Of a stretch of DNA of 64,000 bases, positions 552 through 64,000 are shown in pieces. This stretch comes from an uncultured Actinomycetes bacterium (lineage in GTDB: Bacteria > Actinomycetota > Acidimicrobiia > IMCC26256 > DASPTH01), in contig CAWFXC010000005.1 in NCBI GenBank assembly GCA_963819735.1, positions 556,460-620,459 on the forward strand, given 5' to 3'. The notes below the pieces were generated by a model. That model was not told where the DNA came from, did not search any database, and saw nothing but the letters and a program-made list of their open reading frames with translations. Each line of letters begins with the position of its first letter. Positions within the stretch are counted from its first letter, which is position 1. The position numbers and the translations under genes were made by a program.

Positions 552-561
552 TGCCGACGCG

Positions 562-1860
<1,299 letters not shown>

Positions 1861-1960
1861 GGGATCTCCTCCTCGTCAGCGCCACAGAGTACCCGGCGAC
1901 ACCCGGAGTTCCCCGAGACAGGGGCACGGTCGCGGCGGCGCGCTGGCGTACGGTGTCGCG

Positions 1961-3047
1961 GTGTCGGTCAGTGAACGCGACCTGTCGGAATCGGGCCCGA
2001 CCGCCGGGCGCGTCTCCGCACTGCGAGCGGCGTTCCCGTGGACGGGGGTGGTCGCGCCATGGCTGCTGTCCCGCGTGATCTCGATCGTGGTGCTCATGGT
2101 GGCGGTCAACGACCCGACCCGCGGCTCGCGCTTCGATCAGGTCGCGACGCTGCTGGGACGGTGCCTTCTACCTCGACATCGCGCGGAACGGCTACGGGCC
2201 GGTGGCGGTGCCGTTCCCGAAGTGGCCGTTCTTCCCCGGGCTCCCGGCCGTCATCCGGTTGCTGAGCGAGTTCGCCGACGACAAGACCGCCATCTTCGTG
2301 CTGAACCAACTGGTGTTCCTGGTGGCGTTGGCCGGCCTCTACCGCCTGGCTCGCCGCCACGGCACGCCGCGGGTCGCGTCACTCGCGGTGTGGTCGCTGG
2401 CGCTGTTCCCGGCATCGTTCGTGTTCTCGATGACGTACCCGTCGGCCATCTTCCTGGCCGCGTCGGTGTGGGGCTTCGTGCTGGTGGAGGACCACCTCGA
2501 CCTCGCCGCCGGCATCCTCGCCGCCGGCGCGGCGATGGTGCGGCCCAACGGGTTGGTCGTCGCGCTGGCGTTGATCGTGGCGGTGCGGTCGTGGCGGCGG
2601 GCACTGCTGGTCGCGGGGCCGGTGGTGATCGCGGTGGCCGCCTGGTGCTGGTACTGCGCCGACCGCACCGGGGACGCCTTCGTGTTCCTCACCACCAAGG
2701 CCCGCTGGCAGGAGATCACGCTCGTCGGGCTGTTCCAGGGCCACGTGAAGTGGTCGGTGCTGCCGCACCTGGTCCTCGCGTTCGCGGCGCTGGCCGTGCT
2801 CGTCGTGCAGCGGAAGCGGCTGCCGGTGGCGTGGCTGGTGTTCGCAGTGATCTACCTCATCCCGTCGTTGCAGCTGGGCATGGTGGGGGTGGGCCGCTAC
2901 GCCAACGAGTGCTTCCCACCCTTCGTGGCCGCGGGCCAGATCCTCGACCGATGGCCCCGGCGGGCCTACGTGGCCGCGCTGGGGTTGTCGACGGTCGGGC
3001 TCGTCCTGTTCGCGTTCGTCGCCGGCCGCTACGAACTGGTGCCCTAG
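1961..3047 (+). pseudogene. polytopic membrane protein, probable GT-C-type glycosyltransferase (mannosyltransferase-like); frame disrupted near 2150-2165
   Basis: The N-terminal part (VSVSERDL...VLMVAVNDPTRGSRFDQVATLL) is in frame 2. It continues in frame 0 as WDGAFYLDIARNGYGPVAVPFPKWPFFPGLP... to the stop at 3047. The two frames join cleanly with a 1-nt shift, and the product is multi-TM throughout. Confidence 0.45.
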
Positions 3048-4332: not shown

Positions 4333-5073
4333 TCATCCGCCCATCAGGGTGTGCCACTGGTCGAGGCTGTGGATCCGGAACACGATGTTCCGCTCGCGCG
4401 TCACGCCCATCGTGGCCGACGGATCCTGCGAGTAGAGGTGACCGGGATAGAGGATCGTGGAGTCGGGCACGGTGGCGAGCCGCTGGGTGAGGCTCTCGTA
4501 CATCGCGTCGGGATCGGAGCCCGGGAGGTCGGTGCGCCCGCAGCCGTCGAGGAACAGCGTGTCGCCGGCGATGAGCTTGCCGGCCACCACGAAACACTGA
4601 CTGCCAGGGGTGTGCCCCGGGGTGTGCATCAACGTGATCGGGATCTCACCGACGTGTACGACGTCGCCACTGTTGTGCACCGTGAGATCGGAGTCGGACA
4701 CGCCGGTACCGCGCTTGACCCACTCGGCTTCGTCGCGTTGCACGTGGATGGGCGCGGCCATGCCGTCGATCGCGAGCAGTTCGCGCAGCCCCTCGATCGA
4801 GTAGCCCATGATGTCGCCGCCGCAGTGATCGGCGTGATAGTGCGTGGCGAGCACGCCGGTGAGGCGGAAGCCGTCGGCGTCGAGCAGCTCGACCAACTCC
4901 TGTACGCCATACGCGGGATCGACGGCGACGGCTTCGCCGGTCTCGCGGTCGCCTACGAGGTAGACGAAGTTCACCATCTGGCGCGCGATCGGGTCGTCGG
5001 TCGCGAAGTCGCGTCCGGCGAGGAGTTGACGGAAGTAGAGACGGTCGTTGTCGGTGTTCGCGGTCGTGCTCAT
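4333..5073 (-). CDS. MBL-fold metallo-hydrolase (hydroxyacylglutathione hydrolase-like)
   Basis: The THYHADHCGG metal-binding motif is present, in the C-terminal 246 aa of a 662-aa six-frame ORF. Its ATG overlaps the stop of the upstream ADH gene as ATGA at 5070-5073. Confidence 0.85.
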   Translation of the reverse strand: MSTTANTDNDRLYFRQLLAGRDFATDDPIARQMVNFVYLVGDRETGEAVAVDPAYGVQELVELLDADGFRLTGVLATHYHADHCGGDIMGYSIEGLRELLAIDGMAAPIHVQRDEAEWVKRGTGVSDSDLTVHNSGDVVHVGEIPITLMHTPGHTPGSQCFVVAGKLIAGDTLFLDGCGRTDLPGSDPDAMYESLTQRLATVPDSTILYPGHLYSQDPSATMGVTRERNIVFRIHSLDQWHTLMGG

Positions 5074-6311
5074 CGGAAGTCGAATGCCACCTTGATCGCG
5101 CCGGTGTCGCGTTGCTCGGCGATGGTTGTGAACGCGGCGCGCCAGTCGGCGAGCCGAAATGTGTGGGTGAGCATGGGCGCGATGTCGACGCGGCCGTCGG
5201 CCGCGAGGTCGAGGTAGTGCTGCAGCCCGTGCTTGCGCACGCCGTCGACCTCCTCGATGCCGAACGTGTTGGATCCGACGACGTTGACCTCGCGGAAGTA
5301 CCACGGCGACCACTCGAACCGGCCCGCGGCGTGAACGCCGCTCACCGCGAGGGTGGCGCGCGGCGCGAGCACCCGGAGCGCGACCTCGAGCGTGCCCGGC
5401 GAGCCGACGGTGTCGTAGGCGGCGTCGATGCGACCGGGGTGGGTGATCGGCAGACCCGCCCACGGCTTCAGGACGGTGGCCCCCGACCACTCGGCCAGCG
5501 CGACCACGAGCTCCTCGTCGGTCTGGTCGGCCGCGATCACGTGGGCGCCGAGCTTCCGCGCCAGCGCTTGTTGCGCGGGGTGCAGCACCACTGCGGCAAC
5601 GTCGACCGTCGGGTAGAGCGCGCCGAGGATCGCGACGGCCGAGGTGCCGAGCGCGCCGCCGCCCCACACCAGCGCGCGCCCACCGGCTGGCGGGGGATGT
5701 CGAGTGATTGAGTGGAGTGACACCGCGAACGGGTCGGCGAGCACCGCGACCTCGTCGGGGAGACCGTCGGGTACGGGGATCGCCTGCGACACGTGCGCGG
5801 GCATGAGGTCGGCGAACCCACCGGTGGCGTCGCTCGAGTTGCCGGTGTGGATGCCCGGCGCGAGCCGACCCCGGGTGAAGTTCCAGCACAACGAGAAGTC
5901 GCCGGCCGCGCACGCGGGGCACACCGGATCGATGCCGCGTGGTGCGCACGACAGCCAGCACTGCAGCACCACGCGGGTGCCGGGCTCGAGGTCGTGCACC
6001 GCGGGACCCACTTCGACGACGTCGGCCACCACCTCGTGCCCCAGTACCTGCGGGAAGGAGATGAACGCGGTCATCGAGAAGTCGGTGGCGTCGCCGCCCA
6101 TGTCCATGAACACCTGCTTGGCGTCGGAGCCGCAGATTCCGGTGAGCCGGGGCCGCAGCACGACCCAGTCGGGGGCGAGGATGGCCGGGTCGGGCAGGTC
6201 GCGCAGCGCCATCGGCGTGGCCGCCAGCCCGGCGAGGAGCGGGTTGGCGGACTGCGGCGCGGGTGCCGGCGGCGTGAACTTCGGGTCGTCGCCGAACACC
6301 AGGGCCTTCAC
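5070..6311 (-). CDS. zinc-dependent alcohol dehydrogenase family oxidoreductase (MDR)
   Basis: The 413-aa product has a GHE..G catalytic-zinc region and a GxGxxG Rossmann motif. Its stop overlaps the MBL start (ATGA) and its start overlaps the SDR stop (ATGA). Confidence 0.9.
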   Translation of the reverse strand: MKALVFGDDPKFTPPAPAPQSANPLLAGLAATPMALRDLPDPAILAPDWVVLRPRLTGICGSDAKQVFMDMGGDATDFSMTAFISFPQVLGHEVVADVVEVGPAVHDLEPGTRVVLQCWLSCAPRGIDPVCPACAAGDFSLCWNFTRGRLAPGIHTGNSSDATGGFADLMPAHVSQAIPVPDGLPDEVAVLADPFAVSLHSITRHPPPAGGRALVWGGGALGTSAVAILGALYPTVDVAAVVLHPAQQALARKLGAHVIAADQTDEELVVALAEWSGATVLKPWAGLPITHPGRIDAAYDTVGSPGTLEVALRVLAPRATLAVSGVHAAGRFEWSPWYFREVNVVGSNTFGIEEVDGVRKHGLQHYLDLAADGRVDIAPMLTHTFRLADWRAAFTTIAEQRDTGAIKVAFDFR

Positions 6312-50368: not shown

Positions 50369-50576
50369 GGCGATGTTCACTCGGCGCCCCCCTGAGCGAG
50401 GTCGAACGGCGGTTGGTGGGCGGCGGGTCAGTCGGAGGAGGGGAGCGGCTTGGCCTGGGCGATCTCCATCGCCTGACCGTGACACGTCGAGCGCGCCGTC
50501 GCCGGCCTTGGTGACCAGCACCGTCGCTTCGCACGTGCCACACACGTAGCGCTTGCCCATCTGGTTCGCCATGTTC

Positions 50577-50699
50577 CTACCCCTCGCGAGGAGCCATGGG
50601 CTCCTCGCAACATGACACCTCGCCGTCGGTGCCCTTCACCACGATGATCTCGGTTTCGCACTGCGCACAGCGCAATCTGGTTCCTGCTGCGGTGGCCAT
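50577..50699 (-). CDS. mini zinc-ribbon-like protein (40 aa, CxxC...CC)
   Basis: MATAAGTRLRCAQCETEIIVVKGTDGEVSCCEEPMAPREG. It is paralogous to the N-terminal extension of ACS1 (RYVCGTCEATVLVTKAGDGALDV). Confidence 0.35.
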   Translation of the reverse strand: MATAAGTRLRCAQCETEIIVVKGTDGEVSCCEEPMAPREG

Positions 50700-50810
50700 G
50701 AGCCGCAGGATACCCAATGACGCATACGTGTCGGGGAGTCGAGATGGACGCGGCCCGTGGGCGGGCACGGGGGTCGGCCTGCGCAGGCCGGTCCGGTAGC
50801 GTCCCCGGGC

Positions 50811-51710
50811 GTGGAAACGGGCGGAGCTGCGGACGTCGTCGAGCCCGAGGTCGTCCACGTCGAGCACGAGGGGCTGCGGATCGGCGCGCTCGACTGGGGC
50901 GGCGACGGCCCGCCGCTGCTCCTCATGCACCCGAACGGCTTCTGCGCCGGTGTGTTCGACCCGCTCGCGCAGCGCCTGCGCGCCGACTACCGCGTGCTCG
51001 GGATCGACGTGCGCGGTCACGGCCTCAGCGATGCCCCCGAGCACAAGGCCGATTGCACGTTCACCCTCGCCGCCGGCGACGTCCTCGCCGTGCTCGACGC
51101 CATGGGCATCCCCGAGGTGCTCGCGCTGGGCGAGTCGCTCGGGGGCGGGGTCACCGTGCTGGTCGACGACCTGCGGCCCGGCACCGTGCGCCGGGCATTG
51201 CTGTGCGAGGCGATCGCCATCGCCGCGCCCGATGGCCGGCCCGGGGCTCCCGTGCTCCCCGGCGGCGGCACCGGCGACAACCCGATGGCCGCGGCCGCCC
51301 GTCGGCGGCGCGCGGTGTGGGCCGACCGGGCGACCGTGCGCGAGTCCTACGGCCGCCGGCCCCCGCTCGACGTGCTCGAGCCGGCCGCGCTCGCCGGGTA
51401 CGTGCGGTGGGGTTTTCGCGACCGGCCCGACGGCCAGGTCGAGCTCTCCTGCCCGCCCGAGGTCGAGGCCTGGTACTTCGAGGGTGGGGTCGACGCCGAC
51501 GGTGGCCCGCGTGCGTTCGCCCACCTGCCGTCGTTCAGTGCTCCGGCCACGGTCGTGTGCGGTGACGGCTCCAACCTCGCGGTCGAGATGTTCCGCGCCC
51601 AGGCCGACGCGCTGGGCGTGCCACTGCTGACCGTGGCCGGCTCCCACTTCTTCCTGCAGGAGGACAGCGACCGGGCCGCCGCGCTCGTCCGCGAGCACCT
51701 GCAGTGGTGA
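50811..51710 (+). CDS. alpha/beta hydrolase fold protein
   Basis: HGLS plus a GESLGG nucleophile motif, and a C-terminal His region. The start is uncertain: GTG at 50757 or 50811. Confidence 0.7.
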   Translation: METGGAADVVEPEVVHVEHEGLRIGALDWGGDGPPLLLMHPNGFCAGVFDPLAQRLRADYRVLGIDVRGHGLSDAPEHKADCTFTLAAGDVLAVLDAMGIPEVLALGESLGGGVTVLVDDLRPGTVRRALLCEAIAIAAPDGRPGAPVLPGGGTGDNPMAAAARRRRAVWADRATVRESYGRRPPLDVLEPAALAGYVRWGFRDRPDGQVELSCPPEVEAWYFEGGVDADGGPRAFAHLPSFSAPATVVCGDGSNLAVEMFRAQADALGVPLLTVAGSHFFLQEDSDRAAALVREHLQW

Positions 51711-53476: not shown

Positions 53477-54319
53477 TCAGGTGGCGCCCATGCCGAGGAG
53501 GCGTTCGCGGGAGACTGCCTTCGACGCGCGCCACAGCGCGAACGTGGCCGCGATCCAGGCCAGGCCGCCGATGGCGAAGGCCACCGCCTGCCCGCGGAAC
53601 AAGGTGCCGCTGGACACGCCGTAGGCGATGATGATCAACGGGAGCGTGGCCAGTGCCGACGCCTGCTGCGCCGCCGCCGCGCTCGAGACGCGTGCCGAGA
53701 TCGCGAGGATCACCGCGAGGGCGAGCGCGATGAAGGGCGGCAAGACCCAGAGCATGAGGATCCACCAGTTGCTCGTCGGGAAGAACCAGCCGCCGAGCTT
53801 GGGGCCGACGATGAGGTTCACGACCAGCGAGTACAGACCGAACCCGACCGCGGCGGTGAAGTAGCCGGGAATGAGGCTGGCCATGAGCTTGCCGAGATAG
53901 ATCTGGCGTTCGGTGGCGGGGGAGTGCGACAGGAACTCGCCGCTCCCGCGCTCGCGTTCGCCGACGATCGTGTGCGCGCCCACCGCCGACGACACGGTCA
54001 GTGGCACGATGATCGCGAGCGGGGCGAAGAGGTACACCGCGAGCGCGTACGACGCGCTCGCCGGTCCCTTCTGCCCGTGCACGTTGGCCTGCAGGTTCTT
54101 GGGGAGGCTGCCGACGACGTCACTCAGCTTGTTGGCGAGGTTGGCGTCCTTGACCGAGCCGAGGATGAGCAACAGGAACGTCGGGATGATCACGAAGAAG
54201 AGCAGGGCGACGACGGTCAGCGGGAGCCAGAAGTCGCGCGCCTGCATGAGCTGACGCAGGTCGGTCCGGGCGATCACCCACGACGGATGCGGTTGCCTCG
54301 ACTTGTCGGCGCGACTCAC
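53477..54319 (-). CDS. ABC-2 family transporter permease
   Basis: GTG at 54319 overlaps the ATPase stop as GTGA. The product has six TMs. The longer ORF has an Arg-rich artefactual extension. Confidence 0.8.
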   Translation of the reverse strand: MSRADKSRQPHPSWVIARTDLRQLMQARDFWLPLTVVALLFFVIIPTFLLLILGSVKDANLANKLSDVVGSLPKNLQANVHGQKGPASASYALAVYLFAPLAIIVPLTVSSAVGAHTIVGERERGSGEFLSHSPATERQIYLGKLMASLIPGYFTAAVGFGLYSLVVNLIVGPKLGGWFFPTSNWWILMLWVLPPFIALALAVILAISARVSSAAAAQQASALATLPLIIIAYGVSSGTLFRGQAVAFAIGGLAWIAATFALWRASKAVSRERLLGMGAT

Positions 54320-55257
54320 CGGTTCTCCTTGCGGATCGCGAAGTACAGCTCTTCGAGGCTCGGAGCCTGCGGTTCGACGCGCGTCAACCGGGCGCCGGCG
54401 CCGACGAGGGCGTCGACGAGATCGGGAACGTCGGTCTCGTGTTCGAGGTCGACGAGGGCGACGCCGTTGCGTTCGTACGCGCGGACGAACGGCAGCCCGC
54501 GAGCCGAGTCGAGCAGCGCGGGGTCGTCGGCATCGAGGACGACGCGCACCGCGGGCCAGTACTGCCGCGTGAGCTCCTTCGGCGAGCCGGAGACGATCGC
54601 CTGACCGTGATCCATCACGACGACCTGGTCGGCGAGACCCTCGGCCTCGAGCAGCAGGTGCGTGCACATGAGGACGGTCTTGCCGCCCTCGGCCATCTCG
54701 TCGATGAGACCGAGGACGGTGCGCGCCGACTCGGGGTCGAGGCCGGCGGTGGGTTCGTCGAGCAGGAGGAGATCGGGTTCGTGGAGCACGGCGCGGGCGA
54801 GGGCGAGCCGGGCCCGCATGCCGGTGGAGTAGCCGCCGACCCGCTGGCCGAGCGCGTCGGAGATGCCGAACCGGTCGGCGGCCTCGGCGATCCGGGCGTC
54901 GGTGAGGCGGGGTTCCACCCGGAACAGCTGGGCGGCGTAGAGGAGGTTGTCGATGCCCGACAAGCGGTCGTAGAGCGCGGGCCGGGCGGGCACCACGCCG
55001 CAGCGGGTGCGGATCTCGGTGCCCTCGGCGGGGACCTCGGGATCGAGCCCGAGGGTGCGCACGGTGCCCCCGTGCGGATGCAGGGCGCCGGTCACGAGCC
55101 GCACGACCGTGGTCTTCCCGGCGCCGTTCGGGCCGAGCAGCACGGTCACGGTGCCGCGCGGTACCTCGAGGGTGAGATCGTCGACCGCGAGCACGTCGCC
55201 GAAGGCGCGGCGCACGCCTCCGAGCGCGACTGCCGGAGCGCCGGAATCCAATGGCAT
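54316..55257 (-). CDS. ABC transporter ATP-binding protein
   Basis: Walker A (GPNGAGKTT), signature (YSTGMRARL), Walker B (LLLLDEPTAGLD). The start is taken at the internal ATG 55257 because the longer ORF would run through the tRNA-Cys gene. Confidence 0.85.
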   Translation of the reverse strand: MPLDSGAPAVALGGVRRAFGDVLAVDDLTLEVPRGTVTVLLGPNGAGKTTVVRLVTGALHPHGGTVRTLGLDPEVPAEGTEIRTRCGVVPARPALYDRLSGIDNLLYAAQLFRVEPRLTDARIAEAADRFGISDALGQRVGGYSTGMRARLALARAVLHEPDLLLLDEPTAGLDPESARTVLGLIDEMAEGGKTVLMCTHLLLEAEGLADQVVVMDHGQAIVSGSPKELTRQYWPAVRVVLDADDPALLDSARGLPFVRAYERNGVALVDLEHETDVPDLVDALVGAGARLTRVEPQAPSLEELYFAIRKENR

Positions 55258-55329
55258 ACCGGTGTTTCGGCGCGGGAGCACGCGGAGTGAAGGGCTAACC
55301 TCGGCCCTCGCCGTGCGAGAGCACGCGGC

Positions 55330-55404
55330 GGCGGCGTAGCCGAGTGGCTCAGGCAAGGGTCTGCAAAACCCTGGACACGGGTTCGATTCCCGTCGCCGCC
55401 TCCA
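55330..55404 (+). tRNA. tRNA-Cys (anticodon GCA)
   Basis: A manual fold was made. The 7-bp acceptor stem (GGCGGCG/CGCCGCC) closes, U8 and A9 are in place, and the D-stem is short (3 bp plus G.A). The anticodon arm is AGGGT-CUGCAAA-ACCCT with anticodon GCA at 55363-55365. The T-arm is ACGGG-UUCGAUU-CCCGU. Discriminator U73 is the Cys identity element, and a CCA is encoded. Confidence 0.85.
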
Positions 55405-56356
55405 AGAGTTGCAACGGGTCTACGGCGGTGACACTCCCGCCCGTGACCAGCGTGGTCACAGAATGGTCACAGCAGGAAAGCGCGGCGTCGCATGGCTCGA
55501 CGGATCCTCTCGGAGCGCAGTGAAGGCGCATCGCGCGACGACGCGCTTCATGAAGGAACGCCACCGTGGCTACTGGGCACGTTGATCGACTTCGTATCGC
55601 CGTTGCTCGGCTCTCCCGACAACTACGACGACGAGATCGTCGATCTGGAACGCGTTCGAGAGATGGAACGCCGACTGCGGATTCAACTCGGGGACCGAAG
55701 CCCCAAGTACCTACGCAGTGACCTAATCGGCGAACTCTCGGGTGGAGGCGACAGGATGCTGGACGCGGTTGATATGTGCCTTGAGTGGTACAGCGAAGCC
55801 GCGATGCGAGAAGGCAGCCTGCCTCCGTGCGGTCGCGTCACTTGCGGTCGCGCTCGACCAGGCTGGCTCCGTTTGGACGGTTGGGCTGACTGGCAACGAC
55901 GAATTGTGCCTCGAGCGCCGGGTGGATCCCGTGGCGAAGGCGTCGTATAAAGCTGCTGTCGGCGACGGTGACCTCGCGGGGTACTCCTGAACGCGGCGTG
56001 GCATGCCGCGTACGGTCGTGAGTCGTCTGCCAGCGAGGCCTACCGCGAGGCTGTGCGGGCGGTCGAGGCTGCCGTGATTCCCGTGGTTCTTCCCGAACAA
56101 TCCAAAGGCGACCCTCGGCACGGTGATCGTGGCGCTCCGCGAAAGGGTTCCCTCGGCTACCCGACCCAGACCGGTATAGGCGAGGGGGTGACAAATCGTC
56201 GTCGTTGCGGCGGCGAAGATCCCTCAAACCCAACCGACCCGCGGTTGGTCATTTGAGGCGATTGACGTGAGGTTCCTCGAGGCGTTCGCGGAAGGTCAGG
56301 TTGATGGTCGCCACCGTCGGGGTCGAACAAACGAACGGACGCCTTGGAGCGCCAGG

Positions 56357-57040
56357 TCAGCGTCCGACGACGTGAGTCCACGTGTTCATCCAGCCCGAGT
56401 TGATGACGACAATCGCGAGCACGATTCCCGTGATGAGGGTCGCCCCGGTCGCGAGGCGCCGCAACCGCGCTCCGGAGACAGGTTGGGCTCCAGGGCGGGC
56501 GCGGTAGTCGGCAAGTGCCAGAGCGGGGGTGTCGAGGACGTGCCCGAGTACGTGCACTGTCATCGCGACGAACCAGACGATGAAGCTTGCTTTGTGAAGA
56601 TCGATGAGCCAGCGCGCGGAGCGGCCAGACGCGAGACCCGCGATACCGGTGGCAAGTACTGCGATTGTGCTGAGCACGACAATCGGGCCGTCTACCCGCA
56701 GAGCAGGATGCGGGGCGCCCTTCCGCACGTATGCCGGGTCGCCGATGTAATAGCGCGCGAATCGGTAGCCGACGCTCCCGAGCTTCGTGACAACGAACGC
56801 TGTCGTGGCGATCCCGACGAAGACATGCGCGGTGATCAGGTCATGGATGCGCAGGATGGTTACGCCCTCGGCTGCGAGCAGCGCGAAGAGCGCGGCACCT
56901 GTCGCGGCTGTGAGTCGGGCGTTGCCTTCGACGCCTCCCGCGGCGAGCGCGAGGTCGGCATCGTTCGCGTGGATCACACCGTCGACCACGTGCACCTCCT
57001 CGCGGCGAACTCGCCAACGCGGCGCGCACAATAACGACAC
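56357..57040 (-). CDS. hypothetical polytopic membrane protein
   Basis: The 227-aa product has 4-5 hydrophobic helices (TAATGAALFALLAA..., IVVLSTIAVLATGIAGL, FIVWFVAMTVHVLGHVL, ATLITGIVLAIVVI). It lies inside the islet. The start is uncertain. Confidence 0.4.
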   Translation of the reverse strand: MSLLCAPRWRVRREEVHVVDGVIHANDADLALAAGGVEGNARLTAATGAALFALLAAEGVTILRIHDLITAHVFVGIATTAFVVTKLGSVGYRFARYYIGDPAYVRKGAPHPALRVDGPIVVLSTIAVLATGIAGLASGRSARWLIDLHKASFIVWFVAMTVHVLGHVLDTPALALADYRARPGAQPVSGARLRRLATGATLITGIVLAIVVINSGWMNTWTHVVGR

Positions 57041-57242
57041 GCGGGCGAGCGGAGGCGCTGGTGGGAGCGTTCTTAGAAAGTTCTTACCTCATGCCGGATT
57101 TGTGCCTGGCCCTCGCTCACAGAACGAGGCCGCGTTGGTCGAGTTGCTCGGAGCTCAGGCGTGGCGGCCGAGTTACAGCGTCGCTGCGCTAAACGCGGAA
57201 CACGCAGAACGACTGTCGCTCGGCGCAACGCTCGACCGGCGT

Positions 57243-57467
57243 TCATCGTTGTCGAAGCCGCCTGATCGAGGTTTCGTTATGCGCCTCGTCGGCGCTGCGC
57301 CCAGCGACCTTCGCGCTGACGGCGCCGCCCACAACCCCGAACGCGAACGTCCACAGCCACACCGGTACCGCCCAGAGCACCGCGCCGACGATCACGAGCG
57401 CGATCAGACCAAGCACAACCAGGGAGACCAGCATCAACCCAGACGACTTCTTCGTTGCTCGACTCAT
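57243..57467 (-). CDS. small membrane protein (74 aa, 2 TM)
   Basis: Its start overlaps the stop of the upstream small ORF (TGATG). Hydrophobic helices: LMLVSLVVLGLIALVIVGAVLW and VWLWTFAFGVVGGAV. Confidence 0.35.
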   Translation of the reverse strand: MSRATKKSSGLMLVSLVVLGLIALVIVGAVLWAVPVWLWTFAFGVVGGAVSAKVAGRSADEAHNETSIRRLRQR

Positions 57468-57679
57468 CAGTCCGCGCTGATAGCCCGGTGGTTCCTCGCG
57501 CCGACAAGCACCATCGTGAGTCCAAAGGCGACGAACACGGTCCCGGCGATGCCATCGCCTTCAGCCAGCGCAATCGCGGTGCCGATCGAAGCAAGCAGCG
57601 CGCCGACCGCGGGCCCGACCACGGGCCAGCGTTCGGGCCACTCCATGGATCGGTCGGTGATAGGCGCGCTCGGGCTCAT
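57467..57679 (-). CDS. small membrane protein (70 aa, 2 TM)
   Basis: Coupled to the 57243..57467 ORF. It is divergent from the large membrane protein gene. Confidence 0.35.
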   Translation of the reverse strand: MSPSAPITDRSMEWPERWPVVGPAVGALLASIGTAIALAEGDGIAGTVFVAFGLTMVLVGARNHRAISAD

Positions 57680-57753
57680 GAGACGACTCTGCCGTGCTCT
57701 CGATGAGGCACAGATGAACGGCTCGGGCGAGTCACTCGACCCTTACCTGGTTC

Positions 57754-59379
57754 TTGATTTGGGGCGCGATTGTGCGGGGAATGGCCGCCTCGGCGCCCGT
57801 ACTCGCCGTCCACCCGCCGCGCCGCTCGGCGCCGCACATTCCATGGCGCACGTTCATCGTCATCGCGCTCGCGGCCAGCGGCGTCGCCGTCGTGTGGCGG
57901 GTCGGTTGGCGAGGCTCTGACGTCCCGGCTCAGCTGTATCGGCTCGAGATATTCCGGACGTCCGGCTTCGCGATTTGGGACAACCACTGGTACGCGGGCC
58001 ACTACCTCTTGTCCTATTCGGCGCTGTTTCCGCCACTCGGCGCAACGATCGGCATGTACGGCACGGCCGCGCTCGCGGCAGTGACGGCCGCCTGGGCGGT
58101 GGAGCGTCTGCTCGGCGATGTGCTCGGAACCCGATCGCTCCTCGCGGCTGGAGCGTTCGCACTCGCGCTCATGGTGCCGGTTGCGATCGGTCAGCTTCCG
58201 TTCTTGTGCGGCGAAGCAGCGGGTCTCGTCGCGCTCGTGTCGCTCCGCCGCCACCACCGGCTGCTCGCGCTGATCTTCGCAGCGTGTTGCCCTTTATTCA
58301 GCCCGGTCAGCGGTGTCTTCCTCCTCATCGCCATCGCGGCAATCGCGATTGCCGAGTGCGGCGCGACCCGTTGGTTTGCCGTACAGGTCGGGGCGATGGT
58401 GGCGCTTCCCCTGGTCATCGCGATGGTGGCGTTTCCGGATCCCGGCACCTTCCCGTTCCCCGTTGGCGATCTCATCACGACGCTTGGGGTTGTCGCCGCG
58501 CTCTGGTGGATCGCCCCCCATGAGTGGCGGGCGTTGCGCGTCGGGATCTTCCTCTACGGGCTGCTCGCGATCGCCGACTTCACCATGCCGAACGCACTGG
58601 GAGGTAACTACCAGCGTCTCGCGTTGGCGATGAGCCCGGCCCTCGCTCTCGCGTTCGCGACACTGCCACGACGGCGCTGGGTCGTGCTCCTCGCGCTACC
58701 GCTGCTCGTTTGGCAATGGAGCCCCGCCCTCCCCGCGATCTCAGCCACCGCGAGCGCACCGACCAGCCAAGCGTCCTACTACCAGCCGCTCGTCGCCTAC
58801 CTCGAGGCGCAACCCACGGTGGGCCGCGTCGAGATCCCCTTCACCCAAGCTCACTGGGAAACGGCCTACGTCGCCCCGAAGGTACCGCTCGCTCGCGGAT
58901 GGGAGCGCCAACTCGACGTGGCCGACAACCCCATCTTCTACGCGGCGACACCACTCACCGCGACCTCATACGAACGGTGGCTCGTCGACCAGGGCGTGAG
59001 TTGGGTCGCGCTCCCTGACGCCCCGCTCGACTATTCGTCGCGTGCCGAAGGCACACTGCTACGCACCGGGACGATCTCCGACCTTCATGAGGTCTGGCAC
59101 AACGCCCACTGGACCGTCTGGCAAGTCAGAAACTCACCGGGGATCGTGTCGCCGCCGACGCGCCTCGTCTCACTCGGAACCTCGAAGTTCGTGATCGTCG
59201 CGCCGGCTGCCGGGCGAATCACCATTCGGATCCATTACACCAGCGCATGGAACATCACATCCGGCGACGCATGCGTCGAAGGCACCAACGCTGGCTGGAC
59301 AGGACTGATCGTGAACAAGCCGGGACGCATCGCGGTCAGCGCCGCGCTCTTGAGCGCATCCACCTGCCCGTCACCGTGA
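57754..59379 (+). CDS. large integral membrane protein (about 10 TM) with C-terminal extracytoplasmic domain; glycosyltransferase-like topology
   Basis: The 541-aa product has multiple TMs in the first 330 aa, followed by a soluble beta-rich C-terminal domain. No named family was recognised. Confidence 0.65.
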   Translation: MIWGAIVRGMAASAPVLAVHPPRRSAPHIPWRTFIVIALAASGVAVVWRVGWRGSDVPAQLYRLEIFRTSGFAIWDNHWYAGHYLLSYSALFPPLGATIGMYGTAALAAVTAAWAVERLLGDVLGTRSLLAAGAFALALMVPVAIGQLPFLCGEAAGLVALVSLRRHHRLLALIFAACCPLFSPVSGVFLLIAIAAIAIAECGATRWFAVQVGAMVALPLVIAMVAFPDPGTFPFPVGDLITTLGVVAALWWIAPHEWRALRVGIFLYGLLAIADFTMPNALGGNYQRLALAMSPALALAFATLPRRRWVVLLALPLLVWQWSPALPAISATASAPTSQASYYQPLVAYLEAQPTVGRVEIPFTQAHWETAYVAPKVPLARGWERQLDVADNPIFYAATPLTATSYERWLVDQGVSWVALPDAPLDYSSRAEGTLLRTGTISDLHEVWHNAHWTVWQVRNSPGIVSPPTRLVSLGTSKFVIVAPAAGRITIRIHYTSAWNITSGDACVEGTNAGWTGLIVNKPGRIAVSAALLSASTCPSP

Positions 59380-59568
59380 CAGGACACGCGCGCGATCATC
59401 GGATCCGACAGCCCAACCGCGAGGCGACCACTCCGAACGCGTGGCTGCCCATCCCGCGCACCACGTCGAGTACAGAACGCGCGCACCTAACGTTCGCCGA
59501 GGGGCCACCGCGGGCCGCGCGTAACGGCACATCACTTGCGTGGTGGTGATCGCGTTGGTCGAACCGGT

Positions 59569-61026
59569 TCAGTCCAACCACGGAGTGAGGGTCGGTGCAG
59601 GGTAGAGACGGTCGGTGAGGGCCTGCATCTCGGCGGAGACTCGGAACGCGTCGGGTTCGGGGTCTTCGGCCGCGAGCGTGGGTTCGTTTGTGCACGGAGG
59701 GGTGGGCCGTAGGACAGACACGTCGAGATTTACGTCGGCGTCCTTGTGGTTCCACAGGCTGCGCCCGACGTTGTGCGCGTAGCGGTCCCGTTTGGAGAGG
59801 GCCCAGCTCGTTGTGCCGACGTGACCGGGACCTTCCGCTGGCGCGCCGAGAAATCGCCAGTGGAGGAAGCGCATGATCGAGGTGTGGTCGTAGACGGTGT
59901 GGTCGACCGCGCCGCGCCGCGCGTAGGGCGACGCGACGATCGAGGGCACGCGGAACCCGGCCTGCCCGAAGTTGTTCGCGTCGACCTTGCTCGCGCGGTC
60001 ATCGGCGAGGATCGGCGGTCGGACGTGGTCGAAGAAGCCGCCCCATTCGTCGTAGCAGAGTACGAAGAGTCCCCGCTGCCACTGTGGGCTCTGCACGAAC
60101 GCGCCGAACGTTTCGAGCACGAACCGCTCACCGACGTTGATGCAGCCACGCGGGTGGTTGTCGGTGCGATACGGGCCACTGAACGAAGGTGCCACGAACG
60201 TGAAGTTCGGCAGGGTGCCGTTCGCGCAGTCCTCGAAGTAGCGGTCGAGCACCCGGATATACGGGTGCATTCGCACACCGTAGAGCAGGATCGACGCCGG
60301 CGTGTCTCCGTAGTAGTACGCGGCAGGGACCCGTGCGGCGGTGAGCCGGTCCCAGATAGTGAGGTCATCGAACACGCCAGGACGCAACGGCCCCGGGTCC
60401 CGTTTGCGACCCTCGGATTGCGCCGAATGGAAGTACATGCGGTTCGGGAACGTCGGGCCCAATAACGAGGCGAAATGATGATCGTTCACCGTGAAACGAC
60501 GGGCGAGCGCCGCGTGCACGGGAACATCGGCGGCGTTGTAGTAGCCGATCGCACTCTCAGCGTTGCGCGAACCCTTCGACAAGAACCCGTGGTCGCGTTG
60601 CGCGCGCCCTGCGTTCCAGCCATGCGCCGGTTCAGGTCCCGAGCAGATGCGGTACGGGTTCGGTTCATCGGGTCGCGTTGTGAGCGCCTCCGTCGCAACC
60701 AGATTGCCCGTGGGGTCGCGGTACTGGGCGTGCTGACGCGCCTCGACCGAGAAGCCGGACCCCCAGCGCCGCCGACCGGCGTCAAGATACGCCTGGTCGT
60801 GGCCGAGCCATCCGAGGTAGTGGTCGAACGAGCGGTTCTCCATCATCAACACGACGACGGTGTCGATCGGACATTCGGTCGCGGCGCCGGAAAGGAGCGG
60901 CTCACCCTGCGTCGCGGCACCGGCCGCTTCGGCACGAAGGAGCGTCGGGCCGAGTGCGGCACCTCCCGCAACGAGCGCAGCACGACGACCGAACTCTCTC
61001 CTGGTCATCGGCTCCGCCACTACCAC
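59569..61026 (-). CDS. phosphoesterase family protein (phospholipase C / acid phosphatase AcpA-like), Tat-secreted
   Basis: Twin-arginine signal TRREFGRRAALVAGGAALG. The phosphoesterase-family motifs VVLMMENRSFDHYLGW and HPRG...DEWGGFFDHV are present. Confidence 0.85.
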   Translation of the reverse strand: MVVAEPMTRREFGRRAALVAGGAALGPTLLRAEAAGAATQGEPLLSGAATECPIDTVVVLMMENRSFDHYLGWLGHDQAYLDAGRRRWGSGFSVEARQHAQYRDPTGNLVATEALTTRPDEPNPYRICSGPEPAHGWNAGRAQRDHGFLSKGSRNAESAIGYYNAADVPVHAALARRFTVNDHHFASLLGPTFPNRMYFHSAQSEGRKRDPGPLRPGVFDDLTIWDRLTAARVPAAYYYGDTPASILLYGVRMHPYIRVLDRYFEDCANGTLPNFTFVAPSFSGPYRTDNHPRGCINVGERFVLETFGAFVQSPQWQRGLFVLCYDEWGGFFDHVRPPILADDRASKVDANNFGQAGFRVPSIVASPYARRGAVDHTVYDHTSIMRFLHWRFLGAPAEGPGHVGTTSWALSKRDRYAHNVGRSLWNHKDADVNLDVSVLRPTPPCTNEPTLAAEDPEPDAFRVSAEMQALTDRLYPAPTLTPWLD

Positions 61027-61257
61027 CAGGATGCCCGGTCATTCAAGCGAATCTGGCAACAGGCGTACAGATTTCCGGGATCGCGCTCGTTCCGGTAGGT
61101 CTCATAGCGCAACTGAGCCCGTCCTCTGCAGTCCTCGTCTCCGCGCCTAACAGGCGAGCAGCATCAGATAACCCGGCTTCGGTCGGGGTAATCGCGTTCA
61201 GGACCCACAGGGAACCGTCGACAATGCAAGAGCGCGCCTGGACGGGCTGGGCGGCGC

Positions 61258-61521
61258 TCAGCTCCCGGTCGTCCGCGCTCGTGGCGCGGCGGCGCCTTGT
61301 CGGGAGCTGCTCGGGCCGCCATTGTGGGCGCCATCGGCGCCGTGCTGGTCACGACCGCGGTCATGCGTTTCTTGAGCCGACGACTGGCGGTCGCGGCCGT
61401 CCGAGTGCCCATGACCGCCGGAGACCGCGTTCGCGACACCGAAGCCGCCCACGAACAAGACCACCGCGCCGACTGCGACCGCGACCCAACGAGGAATCAG
61501 CACCCCACGCCGCGCCTTCAC
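61258..61521 (-). CDS. small membrane-anchored protein with His/Gly/Asp-rich tail (87 aa)
   Basis: GTG overlaps the stop of the upstream mini-ORF as GTGA. N-terminal TM is VLIPRWVAVAVGAVVLFVGGFGV. The tail is GGHGHSDGRDRQ...HDRGRDQHGADGAHNG. Confidence 0.4.
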   Translation of the reverse strand: MKARRGVLIPRWVAVAVGAVVLFVGGFGVANAVSGGHGHSDGRDRQSSAQETHDRGRDQHGADGAHNGGPSSSRQGAAAPRARTTGS

Positions 61522-61664
61522 GGGTCCGGCACGATTGGCGCGGGCGCGACCGCTTCGGGTCCAGGCGCGGCGGTATCGGTTGCGGATGCGGGCGCGACGG
61601 GTTCCGCCACAGGTTCGGCCGCGGGTGTTGTAGAGGTGGGTTCTCGGGGAGTCTGATCGCTCAT
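61518..61664 (-). CDS. Pro/Ala/Thr-rich mini-protein (48 aa) with strong SD
   Basis: AAAGGAGAG lies 7 nt upstream of the ATG. MSDQTPREPTSTTPAAEPVAEPVAPASATDTAAPGPEAVAPAPIVPDP. It is translationally coupled to the downstream 87-aa ORF. Confidence 0.4.
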   Translation of the reverse strand: MSDQTPREPTSTTPAAEPVAEPVAPASATDTAAPGPEAVAPAPIVPDP

Positions 61665-61825
61665 CGCCGCGCTCTCCTTTGGGTCCCCGTGAATCGGGGA
61701 CCGATCAAGCATCGACTCCAGGGGTAAGACTCGATCAAGTGGCGGGCAAGAAGCACGCAAGTCGCTAACGCACAACGCGGTGCGTGTCCTGGGTTGGGGA
61801 AGAGGTCCGTGGTTCTGACCGGCGA

Positions 61826-63073
61826 TCATCTGATGGTTGTGTTGATGACGCCGTCGATCCATTGTTCGAGGGCTCGCACGTTTTGGTTGTCGGGTTCGAC
61901 GTTGTGGTCGCCGCTGGTGATCTCGTAGCGGACTCCACGCGACGCGGTGGGACGCGAGAGGTCGTGGCGGGCTCGCGCCCAGCGGTAGGCGAGCGGCGTG
62001 CCTTGGGTGGCGGGCGGGACGAGCACGTCGTTGGTGGCGTAGATCAGGTAGCCGGGCGGGTCCCCGGCGTTGAGCCAGTTCACCGGGCTCGACGCGCGGA
62101 TCACCGCCGGGGAGCAGGTCGTCGGGTCGGCTGGCGCGCACCCGAGGTACGCCGCCATGAGTCCGGGAGCCCAACCGCCCGCGGCGGCGAAGCTCGAGAA
62201 GTCGGACGGGCCCACCATGTCGATCACACCGATCACTGTGGGCGACACCGACTTGAGTTTCGCGGGCAGGGTGGGATCAACAAACCTTCCCGGAGCGACG
62301 GCCGCTAGGGTCGCGAGTTGCGCGCCCGCCGATCCTCCCCCGAGCAACACGCGGGTCGGGTCGAGGCCCCACCGCGGCGCGTTCGCTTTGACGAAACGCA
62401 CCGCGCGGTCGACGTCGTAGCTCGACGCGGGATACGAGTCTTCTGTGTTGCCGTTGCTGCCGGTGGTGACGAGGCGGTAATCGGCTGACACGACCGCGAT
62501 GCCCGCCCTGGTGACTTGGCGTTTGATCACCTCGGGAAACACTGGCTCGTTGCCCGCGATCCAACCACCCGAGTGCAGGTAGATGATGACCGGGAGTTTG
62601 TCGCTCGCCGCGTGTACAGGGGGCAGATAGATCGCGAGATGCTGCGCTGGGAGGGGCCCGTACGCGATGTTGGGGATCACATCGGTCGCCGGAGCGATGT
62701 AGCCGGTCGGCAACCTGTCGGCATCGGCCGACGTTCGCAGGTCGCCGGGGCGAGGGGCGGGCACGACGAAGTCAGCGAGCGGCGGGATCGTCGTCGTGGT
62801 CGGTGCAGTCGACTTGGTGTCTGCCGCGGGTGCGCTCCTCGCCGTCGCGTGCGATCCACCCGCGTCGCCGGGGCGCTCCACCAACAGTCCGGCCACGACC
62901 ATACCGACAAGCAAAACCACGGCGACCGCCGCCACAACGACCACGACGCGTCGCGTTCCCCGGTCCCTCCGTGTGCCGCGACGCGGTGGCGCGCCCTGAA
63001 TCGTTTCTTGAAGCGGGTGTAGCAGCGGCGACGCTATAGGCCGCCTGCCGCGCGTGGGCTCGTCGGTTTCCAA
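61826..63073 (-). CDS. membrane-anchored alpha/beta hydrolase (esterase/lipase, hydrolase fold-3 type)
   Basis: TTG start at 63073 with GGAAG upstream. N-terminal TM, Thr/Pro linker, then HSGGW oxyanion motif and GGSAG nucleophile (GxSxG). Confidence 0.8.
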   Translation of the reverse strand: METDEPTRGRRPIASPLLHPLQETIQGAPPRRGTRRDRGTRRVVVVVAAVAVVLLVGMVVAGLLVERPGDAGGSHATARSAPAADTKSTAPTTTTIPPLADFVVPAPRPGDLRTSADADRLPTGYIAPATDVIPNIAYGPLPAQHLAIYLPPVHAASDKLPVIIYLHSGGWIAGNEPVFPEVIKRQVTRAGIAVVSADYRLVTTGSNGNTEDSYPASSYDVDRAVRFVKANAPRWGLDPTRVLLGGGSAGAQLATLAAVAPGRFVDPTLPAKLKSVSPTVIGVIDMVGPSDFSSFAAAGGWAPGLMAAYLGCAPADPTTCSPAVIRASSPVNWLNAGDPPGYLIYATNDVLVPPATQGTPLAYRWARARHDLSRPTASRGVRYEITSGDHNVEPDNQNVRALEQWIDGVINTTIR

Positions 63074-63076
63074 TCG

Positions 63077-63271
63077 TTACTTCCGTTCGGGAAGCACCGG
63101 AGGTTCACGAAGGAGCGACACCAGCGCGATTAGGAGCAGGACGAGAATGACGAGGCCGAACAGCCACCACAACCACTCAGAGACACCAAGGTCAACATCG
63201 TGATGATGAGGCACCACGGGCAGGACCGCGACTGTCACGTTCGGATGGACGGGCGGGGTGCGCGCCGCCAT
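63077..63271 (-). CDS. small membrane protein (64 aa, C-terminal TM)
   Basis: MAARTPPVHPNVTVAVLPVVPHHHDVDLGVSEWLWWLFGLVILVLLLIALVSLL. There is no clear SD, so the call is tentative. Confidence 0.3.
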   Translation of the reverse strand: MAARTPPVHPNVTVAVLPVVPHHHDVDLGVSEWLWWLFGLVILVLLLIALVSLLREPPVLPERK

Positions 63272-63568
63272 TCGCGAACCACGACCCAGCAGAACGCCGC
63301 AACCAGCGCGACGGTAGCGAGCCAGGCAGTCGCGAAAGCCACCACCACGAACAGCACTAACCAGACCGCGGCAATGATCCAACGCGTCGACCAACGGTCG
63401 CTGGGCGGTTCAGTGATGTTCCCGGAGCGCGCATGCCCGAGTGCCACTTTCGAGACCGAGCAGCGGGAGCGGCCATCAATCTGGCGAGCGACCGTCACCC
63501 GGTCGTCGTTCAACCCGGTCGCTCGAGGTCTGGGTGCTGCGATCGTCCTGTTGTCGTCTCCGTTCATG
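63235..63568 (-). CDS. small membrane protein (111 aa) with strong SD
   Basis: AAGGAGG lies 7 nt upstream of the ATG (MNGDDNRTIAAP...). The C-terminus has two TM helices (WIIAAVWLVLFVVVAFATAWLATVALVAAFCWVVV). Confidence 0.5.
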
Positions 63569-63836
63569 TCTCCCACCTCCTTGTTCAGCCTGAGCGCCGC
63601 GGGCACCAGCGCCCAGAGCCTTTCGTCACTACTGGACGTTGGCCTGCGGTTGCCAGCCTGACCGCGAAATTCGCCTACGACGCCTGACGGCACAGTCGGC
63701 GGCACACCACGGCCCGTGTGGATGTGCCCCATCCCCAGGAAGTGTGAAGCATGTCCGGGGCCCGCGACCAGGGGCCTTCTTCCGCTTCGATGTCAGCTCA
63801 AGAGGGATGGGCCAGGCGTTGCGAGGTGGACGGTCA

Positions 63837-64000
63837 ATGTGCGCCAATGGTGAGGTGACGAAGCGTCGTACGCCGGAGGATCTCCGCCGACGGGGACTCC
63901 GCCTCGAATGGGCCACCAACATCTGGAACGCGATGGAGGTCGTCGTCACCATCTCGCTCGGCGTGCAGGCTGGTTCGCTGGCCCTCATCGCCTTCGGCCT
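63837..64000 (+). CDS. N-terminal fragment of a membrane transporter (cation-efflux/CDF-like first TM region); runs off the window
   Basis: ATG at 63837 gives MCANGEVTKRRTPEDLRRRGLRLEWATNIWNAMEVVVTISLGVQAGSLALIAFGL, a basic cytoplasmic start followed by TM1 with an N-x-x-E-x-x-V pattern. No stop is reached before the window end. Confidence 0.35.
   Translation, partial: MCANGEVTKRRTPEDLRRRGLRLEWATNIWNAMEVVVTISLGVQAGSLALIAFG

What the first reader, a model, noticed from the sequence alone, without database searches (positions are those of the whole stretch)
55330..57750. Low-GC islet with broken ORFs directly downstream of tRNA-Cys
GC content drops sharply after the tRNA 3' end, with AT-rich runs and TATAAA-like sequences. 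The next 2.3 kb contains a gene that appears split across three frames (55492-55950, 55742-55990, 56053-56256), a polytopic membrane protein and two tiny coupled membrane ORFs. Composition returns to background at about 57750. tRNA 3' ends are classic integration sites, and this looks like a decayed integrated element. The decayed ORFs could have been accessory or defence genes.
Basis: partly seen in the sequence, partly recalled or inferred. Interest (0 to 1): 0.6.

Follow-up and report, generated by a model that had tools for sequence, protein, structure and literature searches.

The report
Dead defence gene beside tRNA-Cys
Right after a tRNA-Cys gene this soil actinobacterial genome switches to lower-GC accessory DNA that runs at least to the window end; it opens with the wreck of a HEPN-type candidate phage-defence gene, followed by intact, horizontally shared membrane-protein genes, which is an ordinary decayed variable region rather than a discrete 2.3-kb islet.

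Summary
tRNA-Cys(GCA) lies at 55330-55404. GC falls from 0.707 upstream to 0.649 in 55405-57750. The "gene split across three frames" is a true pseudogene.

The stated right boundary is wrong. GC stays at about 0.667 to the window end at 64000. Two metagenomic contigs run collinear straight across 57750.

From about 56194 a separate intact block begins: a 210-aa membrane protein (cytochrome b561 resemblance only tentative), two 1-nt-overlapping small membrane ORFs, a 532-aa membrane protein and a phosphoesterase. It is shared at 87-97% nt identity with contigs whose DNA to the left is unrelated.

I found no integrase, transposase or attR in the window. Relatives keep the tRNA-Cys but carry different DNA after it, including one integrase and one empty-like site. 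Verdict: a decayed mosaic accessory region at a tRNA hotspot. Ordinary, low interest.

The parts
55330..55404 (+). tRNA-Cys (GCA). It is intact and marks the boundary of conserved synteny. Similarity to relatives continues about 20 nt past its 3' end and stops near 55428.
55495..56146 (+). Pseudogene of a ~283-aa HEPN-domain, PDC-S32-like family. It has three frame switches, at about 55803-55823, 55975-55985 and 56092-56106. It has in-frame stops and has lost profile positions 216-288, which include the invariant R-H-G motif.
56194..56264 (.). Left edge of a shared accessory block. Nucleotide similarity to contigs L142, L144 and L145 starts here. The DNA to the left is unrelated between all four. 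The edge lies about 50 nt after the last recognisable pseudogene codon.
56357..56989 (-). Intact polytopic membrane protein. Homologs are about 210 aa, and the ORF extends to 57040. More than 500 homologs were found, the best at 92% identity. A few homologs weakly match cytochrome b561 (PF01292) below the curated cut-off.
57467..57679 (-). Small two-TM membrane ORF of 70 aa. Its core is conserved in L144 and L145. Its stop codon overlaps the next ORF's start by 1 nt.
57243..57467 (-). Small one-TM membrane ORF of 74 aa. Only 7 relatives were found among 1.84 billion representatives. Its C-terminal tail differs by frame between the window, L144 and L145. It gives a weak sub-threshold Holin-X hit.
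57781..59379 (+). Intact 532-aa integral membrane protein with no Pfam domain. It is 91% identical to P0166 (L144) and 99% identical over 68% of its length to P0170 (L145). The finding's right boundary at 57750 falls just upstream of it.
59569..61026 (-). Phosphoesterase (PF04185, E = 1.7e-62). It is the last gene of the block shared with L144, where 86.8% nt identity extends to 61045.
61826..63073 (-). Esterase (BD-FAE / alpha-beta hydrolase). It lies in the same lower-GC stretch but is not shared with L144. It is only a 27-30% paralog of the esterase that follows tRNA-Cys in L004.

Best explanation
The 3' flank of tRNA-Cys is a variable, horizontally exchanged region of this Acidimicrobiia-like genome. 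From about 55428 to at least 64000 the DNA is lower-GC accessory material assembled in more than one event.

Its tRNA-proximal gene was a single-gene, HEPN-domain candidate abortive-infection gene, probably an RNase. This kind of gene travels at the tRNA-proximal edge of integrative elements.

The copy here is dead. It has three frameshifts, and its 3' end, which carries the invariant R-H-G motif, was cut off. The cut most likely came from the arrival or recombination of the neighbouring block that starts about 50 nt later.

That block is intact and probably functional. It encodes a 210-aa membrane protein (cytochrome b561 resemblance only tentative), two translationally coupled small membrane proteins, a 532-aa membrane protein and a phosphoesterase.

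Shown: the composition shift, the pseudogene anatomy, the family's fold and its PDC-S32 relationship, the block's presence in other contexts, and the variability of this locus in relatives.

Inferred: that an integrase-bearing element once delivered the HEPN gene, that the block's insertion truncated it, and that the family acts in defence.
For: - The composition shift begins at the tRNA.
- Pseudogene mapping by BLAST and by profile.
- 31 of 39 members hit PADLOC PDC-S32, best E = 1.4e-9. There are weak Abi_C and AbiJ_NTD4 hits.
- PDC systems are untested candidates found by guilt-by-embedding (bioRxiv 10.1101/2024.01.29.577857).
- Family members lie 93-107 nt after a same-strand tRNA in 5 of 35 informative metagenome loci. 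In L083 a member lies about 130 nt after tRNA-Ala and is followed by Phage_integrase, HTH_17, Rep and FtsK/SpoIIIE genes.
- The block edge falls at 56194-56264 in three other contigs whose left flanks are unrelated.
- Homologs of the block sit in IS-rich DNA (L142) and inside a tRNA-Leu + integrase island (L143).
- At the tRNA-Cys of relatives there is an integrase in L013, a transposase in L006, and an empty-like site in L004 against 7-9 kb of extra DNA in L001/L002.
- Core genes at 44-55 kb match their orthologs in a single frame, so three frameshifts within 650 nt are not general assembly noise.
Against: - No integrase, excisionase, transposase or attR is present in the window. The far end of the region lies outside the window, so element status is unproven.
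- Other tRNA-adjacent family members (L099, L111) also lack an integrase and att repeats. The gene may therefore persist as an islet without any element.
- The independent tRNA-adjacent cases number only about four, because L096, L099 and L111 share one spacer.
- The reconstructed window protein itself does not reach the PDC-S32 model.
- The family's R-H-G motif is not the canonical HEPN Rx4-6H.
- The relatives are different species, so rearrangement rather than insertion could explain some of the differences.
- Related MAG contigs show long-read indel errors, so individual frameshifts in the window could be artefacts.
Confidence: 0.62

Rival explanations
1. This is a discrete small integrated element occupying 55405-57750, bounded by attL in the tRNA and attR near 57.5-58 kb.
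For: - The GC minimum (0.649) lies in this interval.
- It starts at a tRNA 3' end.
Against: - There is no repeat of the tRNA 3' end anywhere in the window, even allowing 3 mismatches, and no convincing direct repeats.
- GC stays low after 57750.
- L144 and L145 are collinear with the window across 57750, over 56199-61045 and 56264-59526 respectively.
- The interval itself is a junction of two unrelated pieces at about 56194.
Confidence: 0.04
2. This is an assembly or sequencing artefact. The frameshifts are long-read indel errors, and the gene is intact in the organism.
For: - The closest relatives come from long-read MAG projects. Several of their contigs show split-frame hits in conserved genes (L001, L013, L023, L024; L145).
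- One frame switch lies at a GGGG run (55978-55981).
Against: - There are three switches within 650 nt, while about 11 kb of adjacent core genes match orthologs in one frame over their full length.
- The neighbouring 485-532-aa ORFs are intact.
- The C-terminal ~73 profile positions are missing in all frames, and unrelated shared DNA starts about 50 nt later. No indel error can produce this.
Confidence: 0.08
3. This is an ancestral, vertically inherited region that merely has lower GC, for example because it encodes membrane or secreted proteins. The broken gene is an ordinary decaying chromosomal gene unrelated to mobile DNA.
For: - The 210-aa and 532-aa membrane proteins have hundreds of homologs in Acidimicrobiia and Actinomycetota.
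- There are no mobility genes in the window.
Against: - None of 20 syntenic relatives carries any of these genes within 10 kb of tRNA-Cys, and none of their downstream genes occurs anywhere in the window.
- The block occurs with unrelated left flanks and next to transposases or an integrase elsewhere.
- GC3 is depressed in every gene after the tRNA.
Confidence: 0.2

Closest known systems
tRNA-associated genomic islands and integrative elements, including actinomycete integrative and conjugative elements (AICEs, pSAM2 type)
   Same: - It starts at the 3' side of a tRNA gene.
- Its composition deviates from the rest of the genome.
- Its content is sporadic among relatives.
- In one other genome (L083) a family member lies between tRNA-Ala and an Int-Xis-Rep-FtsK/SpoIIIE module.
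   Different: - No integrase, Xis, Rep or Tra gene and no att repeat is present in the window.
- The far end was not seen.
- The content is a mosaic of at least two pieces.
PADLOC phage defence candidate PDC-S32, a single-gene untested candidate (bioRxiv 10.1101/2024.01.29.577857)
   Same: - 31 of 39 intact family members match the PDC-S32 models collinearly, best E = 1.4e-9.
- Their length is similar to the 285-position profile.
   Different: - The matches are weak and cover mostly the central region.
- The window's reconstructed protein gives no hit.
- PDC-S32 itself has no tested function.
HEPN-domain abortive-infection and toxin proteins (Abi_C/AbiJ, AbiV, RnlA/LsoA, Csm6, HepS)
   Same: - There are weak Abi_C and AbiJ_NTD4 sequence hits.
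- The architecture is an N-terminal helical domain followed by HEPN, as in AbiJ-like proteins.
   Different: - The invariant motif is D-R-H-G with R and H adjacent, not the canonical Rx4-6H.
- No partner antitoxin gene is evident.
- The window copy lacks the motif altogether.

Membership tests
tRNA-integrated genomic island / integrative element | Lies immediately at the 3' end of a tRNA gene | tested here: met
   Variable DNA starts about 20-25 nt after tRNA-Cys 55330-55404.
tRNA-integrated genomic island / integrative element | Encodes a site-specific recombinase (integrase) | tested here: not met
   There is no Phage_integrase or other recombinase among the ORFs of 55405-64000 (Pfam). tblastn with integrases and transposases from L013, L083, L143, L142, L006 and L084 finds nothing in the window. 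The region runs off the window, so an integrase further on cannot be excluded.
tRNA-integrated genomic island / integrative element | Flanked by direct repeats, with attR a copy of the tRNA 3' end | tested here: not met
   There is no second copy of the 18-25 nt tRNA 3' end with up to 3 mismatches in the 64 kb. The far end may lie beyond 64000.
tRNA-integrated genomic island / integrative element | Composition differs from the host genome | tested here: met
   GC is 0.662 against 0.707. It is lower than any upstream 8.6-kb stretch. GC3 is about 0.70-0.81 against 0.85-0.95.
tRNA-integrated genomic island / integrative element | Absent from the same site in related genomes | tested here: met
   20 relatives have tRNA-Cys next to the ABC transporter but none of these genes. 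L004 is empty-like relative to L001/L002. These relatives are different species; no conspecific comparison was available.
HEPN-domain proteins | Four-helix up-down HEPN fold | tested here: met
   [not shown]
HEPN-domain proteins | Conserved Rx4-6H catalytic motif | tested here: inconclusive
   The family has invariant R243-H244-G245 (adjacent R and H) after the third long helix, which is non-canonical spacing. In the window this segment is deleted.
PADLOC PDC-S32 | Significant match to the PDC-S32 profile | tested here: inconclusive
   31 of 39 family members match, best E = 1.4e-9, but most matches are weak. The window's reconstructed protein has no hit at E <= 0.1.
PADLOC PDC-S32 | Anti-phage activity | not testable with these tools
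   PDC systems are untested candidates. The window copy is a pseudogene.
AICE (pSAM2-type) | Int, Xis, Rep and FtsK/SpoIIIE-type Tra genes | tested here: not met
   tblastn with all nine L083 element proteins against 55405-64000 gave no window hit. tblastn of the L083 integrase against the whole window also found nothing. No such domains were found in the window ORFs.
Cytochrome b561 (PF01292), for the 210-aa membrane protein | Match above Pfam's gathering score | tested here: not met
   The window protein has no hit. Homolog P0093 scores 26.3 bits against a cut-off of 30.1. Some homologs carry a precomputed PF01292 label.

The most novel reading that the evidence does not exclude
The ~283-aa family is an uncharacterised HEPN nuclease defence gene of Actinomycetota that rides as cargo in the slot between the tRNA att site and the integrase of integrative elements, with a fixed spacing of about 95-130 nt. 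It can be left behind as an integrase-less "tRNA-flank defence islet" when the element decays.

A bolder variant is that its constant position just downstream of a tRNA reflects function. It might be expressed by tRNA read-through, or it might be a tRNA-directed nuclease linked to a spare tRNA copy.
Probability: 0.15. Interest if true: 0.5.

Novelty: new member of a known kind. Interest (0 to 1): 0.25.

Why it matters
For this genome it matters little. The locus is a decayed, mosaic accessory region of a familiar type, and its only defence-like gene is dead.

Two by-products are modestly useful.
- A conserved family with no Pfam annotation (invariant AYREAVRAVE and DRHG motifs) can now be described as a HEPN-domain, PDC-S32-related candidate defence protein. 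It recurs directly downstream of tRNA genes in soil Actinomycetota.
- The tRNA-Cys flank is shown to be an insertion/deletion hotspot in this little-studied Acidimicrobiia lineage.

Tried and rejected
- **attR search.** I searched for a 25-nt and an 18-nt tRNA 3' end with up to 3 mismatches, and ran general direct and inverted repeat scans of 55300-64000. Only chance-level repeats appeared.
- **Mobility gene remnants.** tblastn with integrases, transposases and neighbouring genes taken from L006, L013, L083, L084, L142 and L143 against the whole window found nothing.
- **Pfam, NCBIfam and PADLOC on the broken pieces and on the membrane ORFs**. There were no usable hits except a sub-threshold Holin-X hit for the 74-aa ORF.
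- **tblastx between the tRNA-Cys flanks of relatives**. It was swamped by high-GC compositional matches and discarded. I replaced it with clustering of GC3-filtered ORFs.
- **Looking up the source contig** by exact protein, to see beyond 64000. It is not on record.
- **Family in viral contigs**: none. **Family in the PDB by sequence**: nothing significant.
- **att repeats** around tRNA-adjacent family members L083, L099, L111, L112 and around the L013 integrase island: none within the DNA held.
- **Esterase orthology.** I considered whether the esterase at 61826-63073 is the ortholog of the esterase that follows tRNA-Cys in L004, L001 and L002, which would have marked the far end of an insert. 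Rejected: identity is only 27-30% and the orientation is opposite.
- **afdb50 fold library** was unavailable.
Full report
**1. What is in the sequence**

The window has about 70% GC. Its ABC-transporter ATPase (54316-55356, - strand) is 78-90% identical to orthologs in soil metagenome-assembled genomes labelled Acidimicrobiia or uncultured Actinomycetes.

The only tRNA in the 64 kb is tRNA-Cys(GCA) at 55330-55404 on the + strand. Rfam gives it 65.5 bits.

GC composition around it is as follows:

| Interval | GC |
|---|---|
| 1-55329 | 0.707 |
| 55405-57750 | 0.649 |
| 57751-64000 | 0.667 |
| 55405-64000 | 0.662 |

- No upstream 2.35-kb stretch is as low as 0.649; the minimum is 0.665.
- No upstream 8.6-kb stretch is below 0.693.
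- For 500-nt windows, Mann-Whitney p = 1e-7.

The drop is therefore real and starts at the tRNA, but composition does not return to background at 57750.

Third-position GC tells the same story. Most upstream genes have GC3 of 0.85-0.95. Every gene after the tRNA has 0.70-0.81.

The "AT-rich runs" are not there: no A/T run of 7 or more exists in the interval. There is one TATAAA, at 55946.

**2. The broken gene**

I concatenated the plausible pieces and searched the protein database. This gave 45 homologs of about 283 aa, covering up to 96% of the query (best E = 1e-37). None has a Pfam domain.

tBLASTn of intact homologs and a profile HMM of 39 of them map the remnant as follows:

| Profile positions | Window coordinates | Frame |
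|---|---|---|
| 2-105 | 55495-55803 | A |
| 108-~159 | 55823-~55980 | B |
| 160-202 | 55978-56106 | A |
| to 215 | ~56092-56146 | B |
| 216-288 | absent in every frame | - |

The missing positions include the invariant W237 and R243-H244-G245. This is a pseudogene with three frame switches, in-frame stops and a 3' truncation.

Could the switches be consensus errors? Related contigs do show split-frame hits in conserved genes. In the window, however, about 11 kb of adjacent core genes match orthologs in a single frame over their full length, and the neighbouring long ORFs are intact. The truncation cannot be an indel artefact. I give the pure-artefact reading a confidence of about 0.08.

**3. 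What the gene was**

An AlphaFold2 model of the intact member P0002, built from the 39-sequence alignment, is confident (mean pLDDT 92.7, pTM 0.84).

Sequence evidence points the same way:
- 31 of 39 members match PADLOC's PDC-S32 models, best E = 1.4e-9, and the matches are collinear.
- Two members weakly match Abi_C and one matches AbiJ_NTD4.

PDC systems are 145 untested candidates predicted by "guilt-by-embedding" within BREX, DISARM, type I RM and Hma loci (bioRxiv 10.1101/2024.01.29.577857).

The family's invariant residues form AYREAVRAVE and D-R-H-G motifs. The R-H pair is adjacent rather than the canonical Rx4-6H, so catalytic equivalence is not established.

The window's reconstructed protein no longer reaches the PDC-S32 model. 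No relatives were found in IMG/VR viral contigs or by sequence in the PDB.

**4. Where the family sits elsewhere**

In L083 the gene starts about 130 nt after tRNA-Ala(GGC). It is followed by Phage_integrase, HTH_17 (Xis-like), a faint Rep_1 and FtsK/SpoIIIE genes, which is the make-up of an actinomycete integrative and conjugative element.

A metagenome scan gave 35 loci with a near-complete N-terminus and at least 200 nt upstream. In five of them a same-strand tRNA ends 93-107 nt before the gene (Ala-CGC, Leu-CAA x3, Leu-TAA).

Three of these share one conserved spacer and so count as one lineage. With L083 and the window (87 nt after tRNA-Cys), that makes about four independent tRNA-adjacent occurrences. 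From general knowledge, this is well above what a random gene would show, but the sample is small.

L099 and L111 have neither an integrase downstream nor att repeats. Other members lie next to an IS110 transposase (L084) or among unannotated genes (L081).

**5. The rest of the finding's interval is a different, intact piece**

Nucleotide similarity to three metagenomic contigs begins at almost the same point:

| Contig | Window start | Extent | nt identity |
|---|---|---|---|
| L142 | 56194 | to 57364 | 89% |
| L144 | 56199 | to 61045 | 87-92% |
| L145 | 56264 | to 59526 | 97% |

L142 carries an extra ISL3-containing insert within this span. To the left of this edge, all four sequences are unrelated to one another. 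The edge lies about 50 nt after the last recognisable pseudogene codon. The simplest reading is that the event that placed this block also removed the 3' end of the HEPN gene. That is an inference.

The block encodes:
- **A membrane protein of about 210 aa** (56357-56989, - strand). It has more than 500 homologs. The cytochrome b561 match is only sub-threshold.
- **A 70-aa two-TM ORF and a 74-aa one-TM ORF** that overlap by one nucleotide (TGATG).
  - The same arrangement occurs in L144, and the 70-aa core is nearly invariant.
  - The 74-aa tail varies by frame.
  - Only 7 relatives were found in 1.84 billion representatives.
- **A 532-aa integral membrane protein** (57781-59379).
- **A PF04185 phosphoesterase** (59569-61026, - strand).

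Comparison of the 210-aa and 532-aa genes with their L144 counterparts shows abundant synonymous change, as expected for functional genes.

Homologs of the block lie among ISL3, IS110 and IS481 transposase genes (L142), beside a Mutator transposase (L144), and inside an island that starts with tRNA-Leu(TAA) plus an integrase (L143).

The finding's right boundary (57750) therefore has no compositional or syntenic meaning.

**6. The locus in relatives**

Twenty related genomes keep tRNA-Cys beside the ABC transporter.
- None has a homolog of any window gene from 55405-64000 within 10 kb downstream.
- None of their downstream genes occurs anywhere in the window (which returned no hits).
- Their own flanks differ from one another, apart from small clades.
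- L013 has a tyrosine integrase right after the tRNA. L006 has an IS256-type transposase and an HNH protein.
- In L004 an esterase block starts 185 nt after the tRNA. In L002 and L001 the same block (75-78% identity) lies 7.5 and 8.8 kb away. This is an insertion/deletion polymorphism at exactly this site.
- Alignment of the tRNA region shows that the window's similarity to relatives ends about 20 nt past the tRNA.

**7. What is missing**

There is no integrase, excisionase, transposase or replication/transfer gene in the window. There is no attR. The far end of the lower-GC DNA is beyond 64000, and the source contig could not be retrieved.

**8. Verdict**

The tRNA-Cys flank is a hotspot of accessory DNA.

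There is no self-contained 2.3-kb islet, and the membrane genes are not decayed. They belong to a larger, intact, horizontally shared block.

This is a new instance of a well-known kind of locus. Interest is low (0.25). The only thread worth pulling is the uncharacterised HEPN family and its recurrent position just downstream of tRNA genes.

Noticed in passing
window 56194-56264: The left edge of the shared accessory block falls at nearly the same nucleotide in the window and in contigs L142, L144 and L145. The DNA to the left is unrelated in all four. This suggests a discrete recombination or insertion end of unknown mechanism, and no terminal repeats were recognised.
   Followed up: partly
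L143 893-2149 and 10001-10630: tRNA-Leu(TAA) is followed directly by a tyrosine integrase and an HTH_17 gene. About 9 kb further in lies an 81%-identical homolog of the window's 210-aa membrane protein, and a PF04185 phosphoesterase lies at the locus end. This looks like a probable intact island carrying related cargo.
   Followed up: partly
L096 140-242, L099 5902-6000, L111 1102-1201: The same conserved ~95-nt spacer links the HEPN-family gene to tRNA-Leu(CAA) in two loci and to tRNA-Leu(TAA) in a third. Either the isoacceptor changed in place or the same element end uses both tRNAs.
   Followed up: no
L004 vs L001/L002, DNA after tRNA-Cys: L004 has an esterase/F33 block 185 nt after tRNA-Cys. 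L002 and L001 have the same block 7.5 and 8.8 kb away, with unexamined genes in between and no integrase detected by tblastn.
   Followed up: partly
window 57243-57467 (- strand): The 74-aa ORF's C-terminal third is read in different frames in the window, L144 and L145. L142 keeps only a broken remnant of it. It may be a decaying or fast-evolving small gene, whereas its 70-aa upstream partner is well conserved.
   Followed up: partly
window 54316-55356 (- strand): The listed ORF of the ABC ATPase runs 27 nt into the tRNA-Cys gene on the opposite strand. Orthologs match only from residues 11-19 onward, so the true start is probably further downstream.
   Followed up: no
window 50530-50750 vs 50772-51701: ORFs from three relatives hit the window in two frames here. 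This may be a frameshift in the window, or just an over-extended ORF in the relatives that overlaps the neighbouring antisense gene.
   Followed up: no
window 1-2000: A second lower-GC stretch (0.66) lies at the very start of the window. It was not examined.
   Followed up: no
L111 4098-4284 / 5012-5198 (also L112): A 187-nt direct repeat (83% identity), spaced 914 nt apart, lies downstream of the tRNA-Leu-adjacent HEPN-family gene.
   Followed up: no
L001, L013, L023, L024, L145: Conserved genes (ABC permease, ABC ATPase, the 210-aa membrane protein) appear split between frames in these contigs. These are probably long-read indel errors in public MAG assemblies, which is a caveat for any pseudogene call in this lineage.
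   Followed up: partly
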